Part shown: one piece after another, positions 1-9,220 of the stretch
Position numbering within the stretch: the first letter of the stretch is position 1
Layout of the letters: every line of letters starts with the position of its first letter
Source of the DNA: Gammaproteobacteria bacterium
GTDB taxonomy: Bacteria; Pseudomonadota; Gammaproteobacteria; Pseudomonadales; Azotimanducaceae
Direction of reading: 5' to 3'
DNA: 29,978 bases
NCBI GenBank assembly: GCA_028821035.1
Contig: JAPPHP010000410.1
Location: 1-29,978, forward strand
Translations under genes and position numbers: made by a program
Notes under the pieces: generated by a model
The model's input: only the letters and a program-made list of their open reading frames with translations
What the model was told of the DNA's origin: nothing
Database searches by the model: none

Positions 1-2
1 GC

Positions 3-1112
3 ACCGGGACGATCTGGATGGACGATGTCCAGTGTACGGGCAGCGAGTCGCGCCTCGCGGACTGCCCGTTCGGCGGCTGGGGCCTGCACAACTGCCGCCA
101 CTCGGAGGACGCCGGGGTGTCGTGCGGGGCGGCGTCGAGCCTGTCGCTCACCCACGCGACGGTGTCTGGGGTGGAACTCAGCCTTCGCTACGACCGGACC
201 CTGGACGGCGGCTCCGTACCGTCGCCGGGCGACTTCGTGGTCGGGGCGGGTCCGGCGGACGGCGCAGCGGCGATCTCCGTCGAGTCGCTCGCGGTGGTCA
301 ATGGCGAGGCGGTGCTGATGCTGTCGCGGCACGTCGAGGAGTCGGAGAACGTGGCTGTCAGCTACCTGCCCGCGCCGATGCACCCGCTGCAGGACGTCTC
401 GTACAACGCGGCGCCCGCCGCAACCGGCGAACCGGTCCGGTACGCACCTGCGGCGGCGGCTTCCCGCGAGGCCGTCGTCACAGGATTGCCGGCGGAGCCG
501 CCGCCGGCCGCTTTCCTGAGCGGAGAGAAAGTCGAGGTGCTGCGCCTGTCTTCGCGCGGCGTGGCCGACCTCTCCGCGCTCGCCGGGCTGGCGGACCTGG
601 AGGTGCTCGACCTGCGCGACAACGCCGTGGACGACCTCTCGCCCCTCGCCAGTCTCCCGCACCTGCGCGTGCTCGACCTGTCGCGCAATGCGGTCTCCGA
701 CCTGTCGCCACTGGCGGGGATGACCACCCTGCGCCGCCTCGACCTCTCCGACAACCGCGTGGCCGACCTCCGGCCGCTGTCGGAACTGCGCCGCCTCGAG
801 GTCCTGCTGCTCGACGGCAATCGGGTCTCGGACCTGGTGCCGCTGTGGGGCCTGACAGACCTCGCCCACCTCGGCCTATCGGACAACCGCATCGCGGACG
901 CGGCGCTGCTGCGGGACGCGCGGTCGCTGCGGCGGCTGGATCTCGCCGGTAACCGGTTGCGCGACGTCTCGGCGCTCGGCGGTCTGCCGAACCTCGTGTG
1001 GCTGCGCGTCTCCGGGAATCCTGTCGCGGACTTCCCGACCCTCGGACGACTGACCACCGCGCGCTGGCTGATGCTCGAGACGACGGGCGGCGAGGGGTCC
1101 CGCGAACCGTAG
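3..1112 (+). CDS. 5'-truncated large modular surface protein, C-terminal part: end of SRCR domain, SwmB-like repeat, 8 internalin-like LRRs (paralog of 2100-7079)
   Basis: Frame open from window start ([11 protein letters not shown]...[12 protein letters not shown] = SRCR C-terminal half, to about 125). Then [17 protein letters not shown]...VSYLPAP (SwmB-like) and 22-aa LxxLxLxxNxVxDLxPL repeats (about 531-1040). Colinear with 5973-7079. Confidence 0.9.
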
Positions 1113-1125
1113 GCCGCAGGGGCCC

Positions 1126-1479
1126 CTACACGAGTCGATCCAGGCCTGCGAGGACCGCCAGGAAACCCGCGATCACGCCGAGGAAGGCGAGGACCAACGC
1201 CACACCGACGCCCATTACGTTGAACTTGGTGTGCAGCGACTTGATCTCGCCCGTGAGTTCGCCCCTGAGTTCGGCGAACTGCTTGTCGACCTGCGCGAAC
1301 CGTTCGTCGACGTGGGCGAGAATGCGTTCGAACCCGAGATCGAGGTCCTTGCGCACGGCGACGTGGTCGCCAAGCTGTGTCCCGAACGCGCTGGCGACGC
1401 CCTCGGCCTGTTCGCGTTCCATCCCTGACCGCTGTAGCGCATCCGCCACCTGCAGCGTGTCCATCACCGGCTGTGCCAT
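1126..1479 (-). CDS. DUF1640/CCDC90-like small coiled-coil membrane-anchored protein, copy 1 (117 aa)
   Basis: MAQPVMDTLQVADAL..SGMEREQAEGVA head, VAVRKDL neck-like motif, coiled coil, C-terminal hydrophobic helix (VMGVGVALVLAFLGVIAGFLAVLA). Start taken at ATG 1479 because the paralog at 7448 starts at the same Met; the track's 346-aa extension is not conserved. Confidence 0.8.
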   Translation of the reverse strand: MAQPVMDTLQVADALQRSGMEREQAEGVASAFGTQLGDHVAVRKDLDLGFERILAHVDERFAQVDKQFAELRGELTGEIKSLHTKFNVMGVGVALVLAFLGVIAGFLAVLAGLDRLV

Positions 1480-1878
1480 GGGGTTCCGTGTCCTTTCGTC
1501 AGAATAGCCGTTTCCATGCCCCGGAGCATCCGCGCACCGGCATGCCCGCGGGGGCCATAGCGGTGGATTCTCCTGGCGGCGGGGCGCGGAGTCTGTAGGA
1601 CGTCTCGGCGAACTGTTGTGGGACATTCGCTCGACCGGCGGCGGCAACGCGTCCGGCGGACCGTAGGCAGCGGATCCCGGAAACCGCCCCCAATGTTGGG
1701 GACGCGGATCGGGCAGGTCGTTCCTATAGTGCGGAAACGTGCGCGAACCCGGCCGTTTTCCGGGCGCCGCACGTTGGCTGGCATCTGTCGGATGAGGGAG
1801 CGTCCATGCGTGGGGAACCGGAAACGGGGGCAGCGTTCGGCGAGGACCCGGCCGCGTGCCGACGAGGCCAGCCCTTTC

Positions 1879-2058
1879 AACCGGTTGCGCGACGTGTCGG
1901 CGCTCGGCGACCTGCCGCAGCTCATGTGACTGCGTGTCTCCGGGAGTCCCATCGTGGACTTCTCCCCGCTCGGAAGGCTGGCGGCCCTGCCCGGGCGACC
2001 AGGCGTGCCTGCCCGGGTCATCGAGACGACGGACGGCAAGGCGGCCGGCGGGCGGTAG
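1879..2058 (+). pseudogene. Degenerate remnant of the LRR C-terminus of the modular surface-protein family
   Basis: Translates [35 protein letters not shown]...[12 protein letters not shown] versus intact [29 protein letters not shown]...[12 protein letters not shown]. Trp TGG is TGA at 1927-1929, and no homologous upstream sequence is present. Confidence 0.85.
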
Positions 2059-2099
2059 GACGGCGGGAGGCCCCTTTGGTACATCCGCACCGGCACGGA

Positions 2100-5000
2100 A
2101 TGGGCATGCGGGGACCGCTCGCGGCACTGGTGCTCTTGACGGCGGCAATCCACGCAAGCGAGGCATCGCCCCAATCGGTCGATGGCGACGACGCCCCGCC
2201 CAACATCGTCGTCTTCCTCTCCGACGACATGGGTTGGGGACAGCCCGGATTCAATGGCGGCGACGAGGTGGAAACTCCCAACATCGACCGCATCGCCGAG
2301 GAAGGAACCAAGCTCATCCAGTTCTACGTGGCACCAGTATGCACGGCGACGCGGGGGGCGTTGCTGACCGGACGTTACTCCTGGAAGAACGGCACGGGTG
2401 TCCGTTTCAATGCCAGGACGAGCATGGGCATGCGCGTCGACGAGCGCACCATGGCCGAAGCCCTGCGCGACGCCGGCTACGCGACGTGGCTGGTCGGCAA
2501 GTGGCACCTCGGGCAATGGCAGCGGAAACACCTGCCGCTGCAGCGCGGCTTCGACCACCACTACGGCCTGTACGGGGCGGAGATCGACTCGTTCTCGCAT
2601 CATCGGGGCCGGGACCGAGACCTGGCCCTGGACTGGCATCGCAACGGACGCCCGGTGGTCGAGGCGGGCTACTCGACCCTCTTGCTGGCGGAGGAGGCAG
2701 TCCAGCTCATAGACCGTCACGGCCCGAGCGATCCCTTCTTCCTGTTTCTGGCATTCAACGCCGTCCACAACCCGAACGACGCCCCACAGGAGTACATCGA
2801 CCGCTACAGCCACCTCGACAACCCCAGGCAGCGCGCCCAGCTCGCCGTCATGGATGTCGCCATCGGCCAGGTCATGGACGCACTGGAAGCCAAGGGCGTG
2901 CTCGACGACACGCTGGTGATGTTCCTGAACGACAACGGCGGCACGAGCACGGCGGGCTGGAACGCGCCCTACCGCGGCAAGAAGTCGGAGTACCACGAGG
3001 GAGGCATCCGGGTTCCCGCCGTCCTGCGCTGGCCCGGCAGGATCGCGCCGGGGTCGGAGAGCGCCGCGTTGCTGCACGCCGTGGACCTGTTTCCTACCTT
3101 CGCCGGGCTCGCCGGAGCGGACGCCGGCGCCGGCCTGGCGCTTGACGGCGCCGATGCGTGGGCGGCGATCGCCGATGGCGCGGCAAGCCCGCGCGACGAG
3201 GTGGTGCATTCGCTCGACGTGATCCGCAAAGGCGACTGGAAGTTCATCGAGGAGGGGATCGACTACTACGGCTGGACCACGGACGCGCCCGAGCTGTACG
3301 ACATCGCGGCGGATCCTTACGAGCAGACCAACCTGGCTTCGAGCGAGACCGCCAAGGTGGCGGAACTGCGGGCGCGCCTGGCCGATCACGCACAATCCGC
3401 CCGAGACGCGGAGACGTCTGAGAACATTCCGGACTACCCGCCGGTCGTCTATGGGGAGGAGGAGAACACGGCGTTCGCCGACCAGGTGGAGACGGCCGTG
3501 CGCGAGCTCCGGGCTGGCAATCCGGCGCCGTCGCTGCTTCGCCTTGAAGTCACGGGCGCGAGCGTCAAGCTGGTCCACGACGAGACGCTCGACCCCGATT
3601 CAACGCCGCCGACGAGCGCTTTCGCGGTGATGTCGATGCCGGAGTACCGATCCATTCAAGTCGCGAGCGTGGCGGTGAGCGGCAGCGACGTGACGCTGAC
3701 GCTGGCCGAGACGCCAACCGGCCAGACGTTGGGTCTCACCTACGAGGTTCCGGACACCGGCGCGATCCGCGACGGGGACGAACTCGAGGCGGGCGGAAGG
3801 ACCTGGATTGCGGCAACGCTGCTATCGACGGACGCGTCGCTTTCGGCACTGGCTTTGACGGACGGCGATGGCGATGCCGTCTCGCTCAACGAGACCTTCG
3901 CGCCGCTGACGACGTCGTACACGGCGAGCGTTGGGTACGACGTGACTGGACTGACGCTGTCCCCGACCACCGGCGACAGCAACGCCACGGTCACCTACCT
4001 GGCCGCCGACGGGACCACGCTCGCAGATGACGACGCCGACACCACGGCCCTGGACACGACGCTGGCCGTGGGAGCGAACGCGATCCAGGTGAAGGTGACG
4101 GCGGAGGACGGGGTCACTACGCAGACGTACAGCGTAACCGTGCAGCGTGCCGCCGCCTGGGTCTGGTCCACGACCATGACCGTGGGTGGGGACTCTTCCG
4201 GCATGGGATTCTCGAGCCTGCCCAACCCCGACGTGGGCCGGCTTGCGGACGACACGTTCGAGCACGCCGGCCTCACGCGGCGCGTGCAGATCGTCGCTGC
4301 CTCTTCGGCCGGCGTGACGTTTCGGACCCGCAACGGCGGAGACACGTTCGGCGGCCTGGTACTCGAGTGGGCGGGCGAGGTCCTGCCGCTCGACGACGCC
4401 ACCCGCAACTCCAACACCTTCACATGGAACCAAGCGTGGCTGGACACCAACGCGTCCTCCCTCAGCGCGGCCAGCTACGAGACGACGTTGCCGACCGGCG
4501 GATCGGCGACGGTGTGCCTGCGGGTGAGGTCCGCGGCCTGCCCGCAAACGCCGACGTTCGAGGACGGTGCGAGTGCGTCGCGCGGGGTACCGGAAAACGC
4601 CCCGGCGGGCACGGCAGTCGGCGCGGCCGTTGCTGCGACGGGTGCCGGCGGCGAAAGCCTCGCGTACTCGCTTGCGGGCGCGAACGCGGCGGAGTTTGCG
4701 ATCAACGCGTCGACCGGTCAGTTGACGACCTCGGCGGTGCTGGATTACGAGGCGGGGTCCAGCCGGGCGGTCACGGTGAGCGCGGCCAATGCCGACGGCG
4801 GCGCCACGTCGATCCCGGTGACGGTCGTCGTGACGAATGTCGACGAGCCGCCGGATGCTCCGCCAGCGCCAACGGTCTCGGGCGCCTCGAGTACGTCTTT
4901 GTCGGTGTCCTGGAGCGCGCCGGCGAACGCCGGGCGCCCGGCGGTGACCGACTACGACGTTCGCTACGGCACCGGGGGCGGCGCGTTCGTGGACTGGGCG

Positions 5001-7079
5001 CACCAGGGTGCGACCACCTCGGCGACCATCACGGGGCTGTCGGCGGACACGGTTTACCAGGTGCAGGTGCTGGCGAGGAACGCGGAAGGCGCGAGCGGGT
5101 GGTCGGCCACGGGCGAGGGGCGCACGAAGGCGGCGGACGCGATGCTTACCGCTCGGTTCGAGAACGTTCCCGCTATGCATGACGGGTCGAGCGCGTTCAC
5201 GCTGGAGCTTGCGTTCTCCGAGGCGGTGTTCGACGGCACCGAGTCGTTCGACAAGAACCAGGCGATCGGGGACGCCCTCCAGGTGACCGGCGGCACGGTC
5301 AAGGGCAGACGCCGGACCGACCCCGGCGCCTTCGACCGGTGGAGACTGAGGATCGGGCCTTCCGGCCGCGGCGACGTGACGGTCAGGCTCCCGGCGACGA
5401 CCGGCGGCTGCGACGTGGTGGGTGCGATCTGCACGCCGGACGGCCTTCCGTTGTCGGCCCCGGCTGCGGCGACGATCCAGGGTCCACCGGCGGAGGCGCC
5501 AGACGCGCCGTCGGCGCCGGCGCTGACGGCCGGAACGACGTGGCTCGAAGCGTCATGGACGGCGCCGTCCGACAACGGCGCGGCGATCACGGACTACGAC
5601 ATCGGGTACCGCACGACGGGCGGGAACTGGACGGACGCCTCACACGCCGGCACGGCGACCACGAAGCGCATCGAGGGCCTTACGGTCGACACGGACTACG
5701 AGGTGCGGGTGCGGGCGACGAACGCGGAGGGCAGCGGCGACTGGTCTCCGTTTGCATCCGGGCGTACGGACGCGGCGGACAGTGCCAGCGAGGGCGACGT
5801 GCGCCTGGTCAACGGCACTACGGCCCAGGAAGGCCGCGTCGAGATCTACCACAACAGTGAGTGGGGCACGGTGTGCGACGACCGGTTCGCCTCGGACGAG
5901 GCGGCGGTGGTGTGCCGGCAGCTCGGCTACACGGGCGGCGAGGCGCACCGGCAGGCGGCGTTCGGCGAGGGGACGGGAACGATCTGGCTGGACGACGTGC
6001 AGTGCACCGGTAGCGAGTCGCGCCTGGCGGACTGTTCCTCCGTGGGCTGGGGCGTACACAATTGCCGGCACTCGGAGGACGTCGGGGTGTCGTGCGGGGC
6101 GGCGGCGGGCATATCGCTCGCGAGCGCAACCGTGTCGGGGTCGGCGCTGACGCTGCGCTACGACCGGACCCTGGACGGCGGCTCGGTGCCGTCGCCGGGC
6201 GACTTCGTGGTGGCGAAGGGCTCGTCGGCCCCTGCTGTGGCGACTCTCGTCGAGTCGGTCGCCGTGGTCGACGGCGCTGCGGTGCTGACGCTGGCGCGAC
6301 CCGTCGAGCCGTCGGAGAACGTGTCCGTCAGCTACCTGCCCGCGCCAATGCACCCGTTGCAGGACGCCTCGTACAACCCGGCGCCCGCGCTGACCGGCCA
6401 TCCGGTCCGGCACGCACCCGCGACGGCGGCTTCCCACGAGGTCATCAAAGGGTTGCTGGCGGAGCCGCCGCCCGCCGGCTTCGAGAGCGGAGAGAAAGTC
6501 GAGGTACTAAGCCTGTCGTCGCGCGCCCTGGCCGGCCTGTCCCCGCTGGCGGCGCTGGTGGACCTGGAGGTCCTCGACCTGCGCGACAACGCCGTGGACG
6601 ACCTCTCGCCTCTCGCCAGTCTCCCGCACCTGCGCGTACTGGACCTGTCCGGCAACGCGGTCTCAGACCTGTCGCCACTGGCGAGCCTGTCGGAACTGCG
6701 CCGCCTCGACCTGTCGGACAACCGCGTGGCCGACCTCCGGCCGCTGTCGGAACTGCGCCGCCTCGAGGTGCTGCTGCTCCACGGCAATCGGGTCTCGGAC
6801 CTGGTGCCGCTATGGGGTCTGCCGGACCTCGCCCACCTCGGCCTGCGAGACAACCGCATCGCGGACGCGGCGCTGCTGCGGGACGTGCGGTCGCTGCAGC
6901 GGCTGGATCTCGCCGGCAACCGGTTGCGCGACGTCTCGGCGCTCGGCGACCTGCCGCAGCTCGTGTGGCTGCGTGTCTCCGGGAATCCTGTCGCGGACTT
7001 CTCGGCCCCCGGACGGCGGACGGCCGCGCGCTGGCTGATGCTCGAGACGACGGACGGCGAGGGGTCCCGCGAACCGTAG
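2100..7079 (+). CDS. Secreted multidomain arylsulfatase/adhesin (1659 aa): signal peptide, sulfatase, SwmB-like, cadherin-like beta-sandwich, unknown domain, cadherin, FN3, unknown domain, FN3, SRCR, SwmB-like, LRR
   Basis: Start [22 protein letters not shown] (Sec-like; ATG 2100 or 2106). Sulfatase motifs [48 protein letters not shown] (about 2196-3400). DASLSALAL...SYTASV (about 3830-4150). PTFEDG..R.VPEN...G..V (cadherin, about 4550-4850). Two P.AP..P...L.VSW.AP..G..TDYDV.Y FN3 units (about 4850-5130, 5490-5770). SRCR 5790-6095, LRRs about 6498-7005. Confidence 0.92.
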
Positions 7080-7091
7080 GTCGCAGGGCTC

Positions 7092-7448
7092 CTACACGAG
7101 CCGGTCCAGGCCTGCGAGGACGGCCAGAAAACCCGCGATCACGCCCAGGAAAGCGAGGGCCAACGTCACCCCGACGCCCAGTACGTTGAACTTGGTGTGC
7201 AGCGACTTGATCTCGCCCCTGAACTCGGCGAACTGCTTGTCGACTTGCGCGAACTGCTTGTCGACCTGCGCGAACCGTTCGTCGACGTGGGCAAGAATGC
7301 GTTCGAATCCGAGATCGAGGTCCTTACGAACGGCGACGTGGTCGCCAAGCTGTGTCCCGAGCATGCTGGCGACGCCCTCGGCCTGTTCGCGTTCCATCCC
7401 TGACAGCGCATCCGCCACCTGCAGCGTGTCCATCACCGGCTGTGCCAT
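7092..7448 (-). CDS. DUF1640/CCDC90-like small coiled-coil membrane-anchored protein, copy 2 (118 aa)
   Basis: Paralog of 1126-1479. Lacks QR in the head, has an extra heptad (FAQVDKQ twice) and lacks one 4-residue unit near ELRGELTGE. Confidence 0.8.
   Translation of the reverse strand: MAQPVMDTLQVADALSGMEREQAEGVASMLGTQLGDHVAVRKDLDLGFERILAHVDERFAQVDKQFAQVDKQFAEFRGEIKSLHTKFNVLGVGVTLALAFLGVIAGFLAVLAGLDRLV
7228..7290. repeat. 21-bp tandem repeat (about 3 units) encoding coiled-coil heptads
   Basis: gcgaactgcttgtcgacttgc / gcgaactgcttgtcgacctgc / gcgaaccgttcgtcgacgtgg. Copy 1 has one fewer unit. Confidence 0.85.
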
Positions 7449-7779
7449 GGGGTTCCGAGTCCTTTCGTCAGAATAGCCGTTTCCATGCCCCGGAGCATCC
7501 GCGCACCGGCATGCCCGCGGGGGCCACAGCGGTGGATTCTCCTGGCGGCGGGGCGCGGAGTCTGCAGGACGCTTCGCCCAACTACTGTGGGATGTTCGCT
7601 CGACCGAGGGCGATCCTGGGCGGGCACGGTCAAAGACGAGAAGTGCCTGGCGGCAGCGACGCGGCCGGCGGACATCGCCGCGGCGTGACAGAGTGGCTCA
7701 ACCCGCAACGATCGACGAGCCGTTCCTGCACCACGACCGGGGACGCAACCGAGAAGACTTGCAGAAGGGTGAAACCGTC

Positions 7780-8106
7780 CTACGGATCCGGCGGCGGGCA
7801 GCCGGGCTCCGCCCGGAGGATCTCAAGCCGCTCCACCGACTCGCGCAACTGCCGGGGTACGCCATCGTACGCACTTCGCCCCACCAACGCCCGAGCCACC
7901 CAGCACTGGTGCCGGGACATCGCGATCGCATCCTGGCGACAACCGGTCGCATGGCGGTAGGCGGTCTCGAGCGTTTCGCATCTGACCGCCGCCCCGTCCA
8001 GCGCCGCGTAGAGTTCCGCAACGGCCGCCGCAAGCAGACGCTGCTCGGTTGCCGGATCCCCCAACGCCAGGGGCGCCAGCAATGCGGCAAACGCGAGCTT
8101 GTGCAT
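7780..8106 (-). CDS. Hypothetical small secreted protein (108 aa, 4 Cys)
   Basis: From internal ATG: MHKLAFAALLAPLALG-DPATEQ (signal-peptide-like), purine-rich GAGACAGG upstream, helical body. No family recognised. Confidence 0.4.
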   Translation of the reverse strand: MHKLAFAALLAPLALGDPATEQRLLAAAVAELYAALDGAAVRCETLETAYRHATGCRQDAIAMSRHQCWVARALVGRSAYDGVPRQLRESVERLEILRAEPGCPPPDP

Positions 8107-8278
8107 GACCGCGGCGACCTGTCTCACATGCGGCCCCAGACGCTGCCGCCGTGGACGCCGAGGGCTTCGTCGACGACGCACGGCCAGGCGGATCGCCATT
8201 GCCGGCTCACCCATGCCGGGGAGCATAGGCGCGGTCGACGCCGCGCGCTTCCCCAACACTGGGGATGAATCCGTCGCG

Positions 8279-9220
8279 TCAATCCGACAGCTGCGAACCC
8301 CCTGCAGCGTAGACTGCGGCAGCGTCCCGATATGGGCCGCTGTCGAGCAACCGGGACTGTTCGATGCAGGTGAAGGCCAGCTTCGCGTCGTGCTCGTCGT
8401 CGACGCTCGCTGGCGCCGGCCGGGCGGCGCGATCGAAACGGGGCGCGCCGATCGTCGCGTACGCCGCCAGGAACCCAGCGCTCAACAGGCCGTCGGAGTC
8501 CAGTCCGATCGCGTCGGCGCATACCCCGAGGGCATGGGTTCCCGTCACCACGTGGAGGGCGAAGAAGTCGTGCGTGTCGTTGAACAGCGCGAGACCAACC
8601 TCGGCGACGCGACGCCGATGGTCGGGGAGCACCACGACCCGTCCCTCCAGCGCGCCCGAGGCGACCGTCGCGTTGTAGCGTTGCTCGAACGGTTCGGCGA
8701 GTGCGGGCCCCGGCGGCGGCAGCGACAGATCTTCGCCCGGCGACGCCGTGTTGGCCAGCACCTCCAGCGCCGGGTCGGGACCCGCGCTCGCGAGGTACGC
8801 GAGTCCGGCGGCGACCTCGGCACCGACCTCGAACCGGATCCCGTATGCCAGGCGAATGATCGGGTGGAAGGCGAAGCGGACCCAGCCGCTGGCGAGCCTC
8901 GGCAACCAGGTCGTGAGGGTCCTCCGCATTCCAAGCCGTTCGAGTTCTCCGTCGAAGAACGCCAACAGGGACCCGTACGCGTCGATGTGTCCCACCGCGT
9001 CCGCGAACTCCACCGGTGGACGCCGGGCGAGGCGCGCGGGCGGGTCCAGCCGACCCCGGTAACGCGCCGCGTACCGCTCGAGGTCAGACCGTCGCACCCC
9101 GACTGCCCACATGGCCAGGAGAGCCATGGGCAAGTGGTCGGAGAGATGGCCCTGGTAGTGCGGACCATGGGTGTCGCGGTGGATGCGCAGGGGCTCCACC
9201 AGCCAGTCGGGCACGAACAC
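8279..9220 (-). CDS. Questin oxidase family protein (DUF4243-like)
   Basis: Motifs HLSDHLPMALLAM, FHPIIRLAYG, AGLAY, DFFALHVVTGTHAL. Confidence 0.75.
   Translation of the reverse strand: MFVPDWLVEPLRIHRDTHGPHYQGHLSDHLPMALLAMWAVGVRRSDLERYAARYRGRLDPPARLARRPPVEFADAVGHIDAYGSLLAFFDGELERLGMRRTLTTWLPRLASGWVRFAFHPIIRLAYGIRFEVGAEVAAGLAYLASAGPDPALEVLANTASPGEDLSLPPPGPALAEPFEQRYNATVASGALEGRVVVLPDHRRRVAEVGLALFNDTHDFFALHVVTGTHALGVCADAIGLDSDGLLSAGFLAAYATIGAPRFDRAARPAPASVDDEHDAKLAFTCIEQSRLLDSGPYRDAAAVYAAGGSQLSD

What the first reader, a model, noticed from the sequence alone, without database searches (positions are those of the whole stretch)
1..7606. Tandem array of a cassette: giant secreted protein with conserved SRCR-SwmB-LRR tail plus a convergent DUF1640 membrane protein
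Seen: 1-1636 and 5971-7606 are diverged direct repeats. The shared block covers the SRCR-SwmB-LRR C-terminus, the tail-to-tail DUF1640 gene (stops 12-13 bp apart) and about 155 bp upstream of it, then ends sharply. Inference: this may be an undescribed modular surface system in which a conserved host-binding tail is fused to exchangeable N-terminal cargo (here a sulfatase), with a small trimeric coiled-coil membrane protein as a possible anchor, export partner or regulator. I know of no named system with this architecture. The N-terminus of copy 1 is outside the window, so cargo exchange is not shown here.
Basis: partly seen in the sequence, partly recalled or inferred. Interest (0 to 1): 0.82.

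Follow-up and report, generated by a model that had tools for sequence, protein, structure and literature searches.

The report
Mosaic duplication in sponge-symbiont adhesin genes
Two neighbouring genes for giant secreted "eukaryote-like" proteins of a sponge-symbiont bacterium share a tail because the end of one gene, with a small neighbouring gene riding along, was copied into the other; the small gene is a passenger, not a partner.

Summary
The repeat is real: 3-1637 matches 5971-7606 at 87% nt and ends sharply at about 1640/7609. Independent Logan contigs and an ENA re-assembly support the junctions.

The window is a whole contig of a sponge-metagenome gammaproteobacterial MAG. Copy 1 is not a sulfatase duplicate. 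Its likely N-terminus, on own contig C372, and its SRCR domain both match one ~1,800-aa cadherin-like/fn3 giant of a relative best.

The repeat is a mosaic. The two SRCR domains fall in different clades (dS 0.64). The LRR parts are sisters (dS 0.16), and the small gene diverged equally (dS 0.185). A dead relic of gene 1's old LRR end (about 1834-2062) lies just before gene 2.

So roughly 1.3-1.5 kb (SWM/linker/LRR, the small gene and its 160-bp leader) was copied from gene 2 into gene 1.

None of about 24 tail-bearing genes in other genomes has the small gene beside it. The closest relative has it at the syntenic site with no giant gene.

The SRCR-SWM-LRR tail on variable N-termini is a real, apparently undescribed family. 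It belongs to the known class of sponge-symbiont eukaryote-like proteins. The scan has reported analogous shared-tail exoproteins on other DNA.

The parts
3..1112 (+). 3' end (369 codons) of giant gene 1: C-terminal half of SRCR, SWM_repeat, linker, internalin-type LRR array. The gene runs off the contig start.
   Evidence: Translation and Pfam. The SRCR part is 93-97% identical to the G003 1,804-aa giant, while the linker and LRR are closest to gene 2.
1126..1479 (-). Small gene copy 1 (117 aa): conserved head, heptad coiled coil, C-terminal TM helix. CCDC90/DUF1640-like, below the Pfam threshold.
   Evidence: The exact protein is on ENA contigs from two samples.
1480..1640 (-). Conserved 5' region of small gene copy 1. 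The right-hand junction of the copied tract is at about 1640.
   Evidence: Only 2 differences from copy 2 across 1440-1589. The region is conserved in all 9 paralogues compared. An exact Logan contig covers 1566-2241 and so spans the junction.
1834..2062 (+). Dead relic of the original last LRR and C-terminus of gene 1, with an in-frame TGA. Weak LRR similarity may reach back to about 1700.
   Evidence: It best resembles the end of L076 giant B, which sits 67 bp before a sulfatase-giant start.
2100..7079 (+). Giant gene 2 (about 1,657-1,660 aa; ENA calls the start at 2106): signal peptide, S1 sulfatase (CTATR motif), SWM, Cadherin-like, Cadherin, fn3, fn3, SRCR, SWM, LRR.
   Evidence: Orthologues 77-91% identical occur in other sponge MAGs (L069, L072, L076, L085).
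5971..7079 (+). Tail of gene 2, the proposed source of the copied tract. The copied part probably starts within SWM, at about 6120-6300.
   Evidence: dS gradient: SRCR 0.64, SWM 0.37, linker 0.24, LRR 0.16. Mosaic identity windows.
7092..7448 (-). Small gene copy 2 (118 aa), at the same syntenic place as the G011 copy. It carries one more 21-bp heptad unit than copy 1.
7449..7609 (-). Conserved 5' region of small gene copy 2.
7780..8127 (-). 115-aa ORF with no Pfam family. It is 88% identical to an ORF that also lies upstream of a small-gene copy in G002:C403. It is outside the repeat.

Best explanation
The first 7.6 kb holds the end of one gene and all of another for giant, Sec-exported, multidomain 'eukaryote-like' proteins of an uncultured sponge-symbiont gammaproteobacterium (Pseudomonadales; related MAGs are titled Ca. 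Azotimanducaceae).

Both proteins end in an SRCR-SWM-internalin-type-LRR module. This module is the hallmark of a gene family with several members per genome in this genus. Inferred function: the tail docks the protein on sponge matrix or cell-surface ligands, while the variable N-terminal part supplies a stalk or, in gene 2, a sulfatase aimed at sulfated host glycans.

The direct repeat is not a two-gene functional cassette. A tract of about 1.3-1.5 kb was copied from the 3' end of gene 2 into the 3' part of gene 1. It comprised part of SWM, the linker, the LRR array, the 12-bp spacer, the convergent small gene and that gene's 160-bp conserved 5' region. The left end joined by homology within the tail. 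The right end is an illegitimate junction at about 1640. Gene 1's own last LRRs were displaced and survive as a decaying relic just before gene 2.

The small CCDC90/DUF1640-like membrane protein belongs to a separate, scattered, multi-copy family and was carried along.

Shown: the mosaic, the relic, the synteny and the lack of a conserved neighbourhood. Inferred: the direction (2 to 1), the single-event mechanism and the docking function.
For: Repeat and junctions.

Locus reconstruction: own contig C372 (COX genes, GST, 488-aa sulfatase) and the window's CNNM/PhyH/96-aa/MFS genes are contiguous in G011 at 94-99.7% aa identity. There, only the small gene lies between the sulfatase and CNNM.

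Copy 1 is different. The ORF after the 488-aa sulfatase has a signal peptide and a Cadherin-like domain, and is 80% identical over 206 aa to the N-terminus of the G003 1,804-aa giant. The first 100 residues of tail 1 are 93% identical to residues 1357-1456 of that same protein, against 80% to gene 2.

Mosaic: identity windows. The SRCR tree separates gene 1 (clade support 95/95) from gene 2 (99/98). The LRR tree makes them sisters (100/99). dS values are SRCR 0.64, LRR 0.16 and small gene 0.185, with omega 0.3-0.6. Both window tails share a derived deletion of about 24 aa near the C-terminus that other family members lack.

Relic position mirrors L076, where a tail-bearing gene ends 67 bp before the sulfatase giant.

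Passenger status: 0 of about 24 tails have a small-gene neighbour. The nearest tail homologues in complete genomes lie 35-330 kb from any family member. G011 has the small gene but no SRCR-bearing tail (best tail hit 5e-19, LRR region only). In L081 the tail abuts CNNM directly. The small gene has up to 15 matches per genome, varied neighbours (QueF, glyoxalase, YhgA-like, sulfatase) and presence/absence differences at syntenic sites.

Function leads: the LRR model (pLDDT about 90) superposes on InlA/InlB/InlC2 at rmsd 1-2 A and 30-37% identity. The sulfatase scores 174.7 bits with a conserved CTATR motif, and four FGE-sulfatase-family loci are in the genome.
Against: The middle of gene 1 (about 1,160 aa) is not assembled in the MAG or in the ENA re-assembly. 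Linking C372 to the window therefore rests on synteny and on both ends matching the same protein best.

The small-gene family and LRR-protein genes co-localise regionally more than uniform random placement predicts. In three genomes, 7 of 16 LRR genes lie within 30 kb of a family member against 1.9 expected (naive P about 0.01). Both families cluster, so the test overstates significance. Even so, a loose functional or island-level link is not excluded.

In the window's own genome another family member is convergent with a 1,208-aa FG-GAP protein, with about 25 bp between the two ORF ends.

The right end of the copied tract lies close to where paralogue-wide conservation of the small gene's 5' region fades. 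Independent mobility of a 'small-gene unit' cannot be fully dismissed.

No binding or expression experiment exists.
Confidence: 0.8

Rival explanations
1. One reading: a functional two-gene cassette in which the coiled-coil membrane protein anchors, exports or regulates the tail-bearing giant protein.
For: The tight tail-to-tail arrangement occurs twice in the window. Another family member in the same genome is convergent with a large FG-GAP protein. There is mild regional co-localisation with LRR genes in G001, G011 and G013. An LRR protein lies about 2 kb from a copy in G002:C403.
Against: The two window instances are one event counted twice. 0 of about 24 tail-bearing genes elsewhere have the neighbour. 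G011 keeps the small gene at the syntenic site with no giant. L081 has the giant without the small gene. Other neighbours of the small gene are unrelated housekeeping genes.
Confidence: 0.08
2. The small gene with its 160-bp leader is an independently mobile unit that inserted separately behind both giants. LRR similarity between the two genes then comes from a separate gene conversion.
For: The family is multi-copy with presence/absence differences between close relatives. G006 and G014 have a copy between QueF and a 417-aa gene, and own C372 lacks it. The leader is conserved in all paralogues. A YhgA-like transposase-family gene lies next to one copy.
Against: Homology between the two window copies runs without a break from the LRR through the 12-13-bp spacer into the small gene. 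dS is the same in the LRR (0.16) and the small gene (0.185). No terminal repeats or target duplications were seen in the empty-versus-filled site comparison.
Confidence: 0.07
3. Assembly artefact: the repeat is a chimera of two strain variants of a single locus.
For: The MAG is fragmented (486 contigs, 64.7% complete). Both assemblies break inside the SRCR domain. One low-depth Logan contig joins 7286 to 1274 within the heptad repeat.
Against: An exact contig (1566-2241) physically links leader 1 to the unique spacer, the relic and the start of gene 2. Exact contigs also span tail 1 to small gene 1. Depth is equal across unique pieces in two runs. Two assemblies agree, and a second sample holds the junction. 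Copy 1's SRCR is a different paralogue type from copy 2's, not a strain variant of it.
Confidence: 0.03

Closest known systems
Eukaryote-like proteins (ELPs/ELRs) and adhesion-domain proteins of sponge symbionts (Robbins et al. 2021, PMC8163846)
   Same: Bacterial genes from sponge MAGs that carry LRR, cadherin and fn3 domains. They are enriched in symbionts and reported as laterally transferred. The window comes from that study's samples.
   Different: That paper treats domains one at a time and mentions neither SRCR nor sulfatase. Here there is a fixed SRCR-SWM-LRR C-terminal module on variable N-termini, one of them a sulfatase, in tandem arrays with within-locus copying.
Listeria internalins (InlA, InlB, InlC2, InlH)
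   Same: 22-residue LRR array. The predicted fold superposes at rmsd 1-2 A with 30-37% identity. In internalins this surface binds host receptors.
   Different: There is no room for the Ig-like inter-repeat domain after the LRR, because only about 30 residues follow the last repeat. No LPXTG or GW anchor was noticed on reading the sequence (no motif search was run). The host is Gram-negative, and the LRR is C-terminal on a 1,660-aa multidomain protein.
MCUR1/CCDC90B family (Pfam PF07798, formerly DUF1640; PDB 6H9M)
   Same: The small protein has a conserved N-terminal head motif, a heptad coiled-coil stalk and a C-terminal TM helix. 15 of 20 family members give sub-threshold PF07798 hits, and a profile hits 6h9m at E=0.14.
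   Different: It is below Pfam's gathering score and has no NCBIfam model. The oligomeric state is untested. The family is narrow, multi-copy, and has a conserved 160-bp 5' region.
Synechococcus SwmB-type giant cell-surface proteins (SWM_repeat, PF13753)
   Same: SWM_repeat domains inside a giant secreted protein.
   Different: Only one or two SWM units per protein. There is no link to motility, and the overall architecture differs.
Animal SRCR proteins (DMBT1-like, sponge SRCR proteins)
   Same: The SRCR domain is 46-67% identical to metazoan SRCR repeats (sponge hits 52-58%).
   Different: A single domain embedded in a high-GC bacterial ORF with bacterial neighbours.
Shared-tail exoprotein families noted by this scan in other sponge symbionts (e.g. 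e1-1235845, Binatia)
   Same: Many exoproteins in one genome end in the same C-terminal module, joined to unrelated N-terminal parts.
   Different: The tail domains and the bacterial lineage differ. Those reports were not re-tested here.

Membership tests
Conserved two-gene cassette (tail-bearing giant plus small coiled-coil membrane protein) | The partner gene recurs next to homologues of the giant in other genomes | tested here: not met
   0 of about 24 tail-bearing genes in 25 loci (275 kb), by tblastn with 20 family queries and by a family HMM. The only hit was a coiled-coil-only match in L069 that lacks the head motif. In complete genomes the nearest family member is 35-330 kb away.
Conserved two-gene cassette (tail-bearing giant plus small coiled-coil membrane protein) | The partner is absent where the giant is absent | tested here: not met
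   G011 keeps the small gene at the syntenic site (87% aa identity) but has no SRCR-SWM-LRR giant.
Sponge-symbiont eukaryote-like proteins | Eukaryote-type repeat or adhesion domains in a bacterial ORF | tested here: met
   SRCR, LRR_4/LRR_8, fn3, Cadherin and Cadherin-like all score above their Pfam cut-offs.
Sponge-symbiont eukaryote-like proteins | Encoded by sponge-associated bacteria | tested here: met
   Homologous loci come from sponge MAGs. The exact proteins are in ENA sponge-metagenome assemblies. The runs that hold the sequence are sponge metagenomes.
Sponge-symbiont eukaryote-like proteins | Modulates host interaction (adhesion or phagocytosis) | not testable with these tools
   Needs experiments with sponge cells or matrix.
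Internalin family | 22-residue LRR array with the internalin fold | tested here: met
   Foldseek top hits are InlA, InlB, InlC2 and InlH, with E about 1e-13 to 1e-10, rmsd 1-2 A over about 160-180 residues.
Internalin family | Ig-like inter-repeat domain after the LRR, and an LPXTG or GW cell-wall anchor | tested here: inconclusive
   The protein ends about 30 residues after the last LRR, which leaves no room for an inter-repeat domain. No LPXTG or GW motif was noticed on reading the sequence, but no motif search was run.
CCDC90-like / DUF1640 (PF07798) | Score above Pfam's gathering threshold | tested here: not met
   Copy 1 scores 24.7 bits against 33.5, and copy 2 has no hit. 15 of 20 relatives hit only at E up to 0.01.
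CCDC90-like / DUF1640 (PF07798) | Head, coiled-coil stalk and C-terminal TM architecture | tested here: inconclusive
   The alignment shows a conserved head, variable heptads and a hydrophobic C-terminal helix. The AF2 model gives helix 8-16, helix 20-86 and helix 90-117, but mean pLDDT is only 63. A profile hits PDB 6h9m at E=0.14.
CCDC90-like / DUF1640 (PF07798) | Trimeric assembly | not tested
   No multimer prediction or experiment was done.
S1 formylglycine-dependent sulfatases (PF00884) | Sulfatase domain with a C/S-x-P/A-x-R motif | tested here: met
   PF00884 scores 174.7 bits. CTATR is at residue 82 and is conserved in orthologues. That the A variant is acceptable rests on my own knowledge of the motif.
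S1 formylglycine-dependent sulfatases (PF00884) | A maturation enzyme is present in the genome | tested here: met
   Four loci score above the PF03781 FGE-sulfatase cut-off in the 65%-complete MAG.
T1SS RTX giant adhesins (LapA/SiiE type) | C-terminal RTX repeats or a T1SS signal, and no Sec signal peptide | tested here: not met
   No RTX-repeat (HemolysinCabind) family appears in the Pfam scan. The N-terminus looks like a Sec signal peptide on inspection: [20 protein letters not shown]; no predictor was run.

The most novel reading that the evidence does not exclude
The SRCR-SWM-LRR tail is a portable host-docking module of sponge symbionts. It is repeatedly re-copied between neighbouring giant genes, which homogenises the binding end while the N-termini stay different, and it is passed between unrelated symbiont lineages. 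Supporting observations: a 70%-GC tail gene sits in 53-56%-GC flanks in two MAGs binned to different phyla, and tandem genes in another MAG have identical SRCR domains. The scattered small-gene units, with their strongly conserved 160-bp leaders, may act as recombination landmarks or hitchhikers that mark such events.
Probability: 0.2. Interest if true: 0.6.

Novelty: new variant of a known kind. Interest (0 to 1): 0.35.

Why it matters
The proposed new two-component surface system does not hold up. The small gene is a bystander, so the finding should not be pursued as a new secretion or anchoring system.

Two things remain useful.

1. A defined gene family. Sponge-symbiont gammaproteobacteria place one conserved tail (metazoan-type SRCR, SWM repeat, internalin-type LRR) on different N-terminal parts, including a sulfatase. 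This gives a concrete hypothesis for how symbionts bring enzymes to sulfated host matrix. It can be tested with recombinant tail and sulfatase.

2. A clean example of how such families evolve. The locus shows partial gene copying between tandem paralogues, with a datable mosaic and a leftover relic.

The general class of eukaryote-like adhesion proteins in sponge symbionts is already well known, so this refines existing knowledge rather than opening a new category.

Tried and rejected
- Rfam scan of 1-9000 at E up to 1 gave only a chance snoRNA hit. No known RNA family covers the conserved leader.
- RNA folding of the leader is less stable than shuffled sequence (z = +1.58). RNAalifold on 9 paralogues gave a covariation term of only -0.37, with 3 pairs changed on both sides. 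A structured-RNA reading is therefore not supported.
- No sigma-70-like promoter or intrinsic terminator was found around either copy.
- For the small protein, NCBIfam and PDB sequence searches returned only chance coiled-coil hits.
- The AF2 monomer of the small protein has low confidence (pLDDT 63), so no fold search was run on it.
- The search for the missing middle of gene 1 failed. Own contig C352 is only 38% identical to the G003 giant, so it is not that piece. ENA scaffolds extend the two ends by only 123 bp and 64 aa.
- The comparison of an empty and a filled small-gene site showed no clean boundaries or target duplications.
- A protein search with the tail region was swamped by multi-SRCR animal proteins and said little about bacterial relatives.
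- A second GspD-like secretin lies near LRR and small genes in G011. Gene sizes around it resemble a pilMNOPQ operon. I did not verify this and draw nothing from it.

Full report
**Observation.** The window is a whole 29,978-bp contig (C286) of a 2.97-Mb MAG with 486 contigs, 64.7% complete.
- Positions 3-1637 and 5971-7606 are direct repeats at 87% nt identity. Similarity falls to background at about 1640/7609.
- Each copy holds the C-terminal 369 codons of a protein with SRCR, SWM_repeat and LRR domains.
- Each copy also holds a convergent 117/118-aa ORF whose stop lies 13 or 12 bp from the tail's stop, plus about 160 bp upstream of that ORF.
- A third, partial copy of the LRR end with an in-frame TGA lies at 1834/1878-2062, directly before the real start of the second gene.

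**Assembly.** Logan contigs of two sponge-metagenome runs match exactly across 952-1245/1252 (tail 1 into small gene 1).
- In one run, exact contigs also cover 1566-2241 (leader 1, junction, relic, start of gene 2) and 7535-8200.
- Depth of the unique pieces is even, about 9x in one run and 4.7x in the other.
- An ENA re-assembly of the same sample gives the same gene order on a 41.5-kb scaffold. A second sample holds the tail 1-small gene 1 junction.
- A strain chimera is therefore unlikely.

**Organism and context.** Related loci come from sponge MAGs titled Gammaproteobacteria, Pseudomonadales or Ca. Azotimanducaceae. The exact proteins sit in assemblies of the Robbins et al. 2021 sponge samples.
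- The genome is 68% GC and sulfatase-rich.
- Gene 2 (2100/2106-7079) reads: signal peptide, S1 sulfatase (174.7 bits, CTATR motif), SWM, Cadherin-like, Cadherin, two fn3, SRCR, SWM, LRR.
- FGE-sulfatase-family genes are present in the genome.
- The LRR part of the AF2 model (pLDDT about 90) superposes on Listeria internalins at rmsd 1-2 A.
- The SRCR is 46-67% identical to animal SRCR repeats.

**What copy 1 is.** In the close relative G011, the genes on own contig C372 and the window's CNNM, PhyH, 96-aa and MFS genes form one contiguous locus at 94-99.7% aa identity.
- The C372 genes are cytochrome oxidase subunits, GST and a 488-aa sulfatase.
- In G011, only the small gene lies between the 488-aa sulfatase and CNNM.
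- In the window's genome, the ORF that follows the 488-aa sulfatase has a signal peptide and a Cadherin-like domain and runs off the contig.
- That ORF is 80% identical over 206 aa to the N-terminus of a 1,804-aa giant of G003.
- The first 100 residues of tail 1 are 93% identical to residues 1357-1456 of the same G003 protein, against 80% to gene 2.
- Copy 1 is thus most likely an ~1,800-aa giant of cadherin-like, SWM and fn3 domains, not a sulfatase duplicate. This is an inference, because about 1,160 aa in the middle remain unassembled.

**The repeat is a mosaic.**
- In 30-residue windows, tail 1 is closest to the G003/L074 type through the SRCR. From about the SWM domain onward it is closest to gene 2.
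- Trees agree. SRCR 1 sits in a G003/L074/L075 clade (95/95) and SRCR 2 groups with L080 (99/98). The two LRR arrays are sisters (100/99).
- Synonymous divergence falls along the tail: SRCR 0.64, SWM 0.37, linker 0.24, LRR 0.16. It equals that of the small gene (0.185). Omega is 0.3-0.6, so both copies look functional.
- Both window tails share a derived deletion of about 24 aa near the C-terminus.
- The relic resembles the long ancestral C-terminus. It occupies the place where, in SB0670_bin_10 (L076), a tail-bearing gene ends 67 bp before the sulfatase giant.

**Simplest account (inferred).** SWM/linker/LRR 2, the small gene and its leader were copied into gene 1. The left end was homologous and the right end illegitimate, and the old LRR end was displaced. 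A tandem duplication followed by a tail-to-tail deletion would give the same product.

**The small gene is a passenger.**
- None of about 24 tail-bearing genes in 25 loci (275 kb) has a family member nearby. The only hit was a coiled-coil-only match without the head motif.
- In complete genomes, the nearest tail homologues lie 35-330 kb from any family member.
- G011 has the small gene at the syntenic site but no SRCR-bearing giant.
- In SB0661_bin_54 the giant's tail abuts CNNM directly (L081).
- The family is found in 18 of 21 same-genus genomes, with up to 15 matches per genome.
- It has varied neighbours (QueF, glyoxalase, YhgA-like, sulfatase, LRR proteins) and presence/absence differences at syntenic sites.
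- Its proteins have a conserved head, a variable number of heptads and a C-terminal TM helix.
- Membership in PF07798 is only sub-threshold.
- One caveat: family members lie within 30 kb of LRR-protein genes more often than random placement predicts (7 of 16 against 1.9). Both families cluster in islands, so this is weak evidence.

The SRCR-SWM-LRR tail is a family-wide C-terminal module with variable N-terminal parts.
- These parts include three Cadherin-like plus four fn3, ten Cadherin-like, triple SRCR with Calx-beta, and a sulfatase head. They are often arranged in tandem arrays.
- The sulfatase-headed form has orthologues in several sponge MAGs.
- Robbins et al. describe LRR, cadherin and fn3 enrichment and lateral transfer in these MAGs. 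They mention neither SRCR nor sulfatase.
- This scan has reported analogous shared-tail exoproteins in other sponge symbionts.

**Verdict.** This is a new variant (a defined tail family) of a known kind, and the 'cassette array' is an ordinary local copying event with a hitchhiking gene.

Noticed in passing
window 1440-1640 and 7409-7609 (minus strand); alignment A1: The ~160 bp upstream of the small gene, plus its first ~50 coding bases, is conserved at nucleotide level in all 9 paralogues compared from 5 genomes. The two window copies differ at only 2 of 150 positions here, while synonymous sites differ by about 0.18. There is no Rfam hit, no stable fold and weak covariation. It is possibly a promoter or operator; its function is unknown.
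   Followed up: partly
window 1274-1319 and 7228-7286: A 21-bp tandem unit encodes one coiled-coil heptad (FAQVDKQ). Its copy number differs between the two small genes (2.2 against 2.8) and among paralogues in other genomes.
   Followed up: partly
L078:840-2558 and L073:1-2895: A tail-only gene (fn3-SRCR-SWM-LRR, 70% GC) sits at the end of 53-56% GC contigs in two MAGs from different studies, labelled Caldilineaceae and Rhodospirillaceae. Their low-GC flanks are 93% identical over 765 bp, so the junction recurs in independent assemblies. At least one bin label must be wrong, or the gene was transferred.
   Followed up: partly
L068:2-4948 and L068:6119-10279: Two tandem giants in IRC1_bin_7 have identical SRCR domains. 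This suggests copying between neighbouring family members recurs in other genomes.
   Followed up: no
L058 and L059 (G012:C6:70000-97000): An array of at least four tail-bearing or related giants. It includes a 2,342-aa sulfatase-headed one without SRCR, a protein with the sulfatase at its C-terminus, and a short LRR relic ORF (L058:5378-5899). No small-gene family member lies between them.
   Followed up: partly
window 1050-1112 and 7017-7079: Both window tails lack about 24 residues that all other family members have between RWLxLD and ETTDG near the C-terminus. The relic at 1834-2062 keeps part of the long form.
   Followed up: yes
window 7780-8127 (minus strand): A 115-aa ORF without a Pfam family is 88% identical to an ORF that also lies upstream of a small-gene copy in G002:C403. 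There it is preceded by a 121-aa HTH (LuxR/GerE-like) protein.
   Followed up: partly
window 1 and ENA scaffold_1862 end (L090): Both the MAG contig and an independent re-assembly break within 123 bp of each other inside the SRCR domain. The 31-mer depth summed over all matching contigs in the runs is far higher across the first half of gene 2's SRCR domain (5755-6028: about 390 in run X1 and 90 in X2, against about 9 and 5 for unique pieces). This suggests many near-identical SRCR copies in the community.
   Followed up: partly
window 5808-6095: The SRCR domain is 46-67% identical to SRCR repeats of animal DMBT1-like proteins, including sponge proteins at 52-58%. This is consistent with a metazoan origin.
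   Followed up: partly
window 1-8200, RNA run X5: A sponge metatranscriptome holds short contigs 93-99% identical to parts of gene 2 and of the small gene. This hints at expression in a related strain, but DNA carry-over is not excluded.
   Followed up: no
L004 (own contig C445) 3947-4381 (+) and 4406-8032 (-): Another small-gene family member in the same genome is convergent with a 1,208-aa FG-GAP/VCBS-type protein, with about 25 bp between the two ORF ends.
   Followed up: partly
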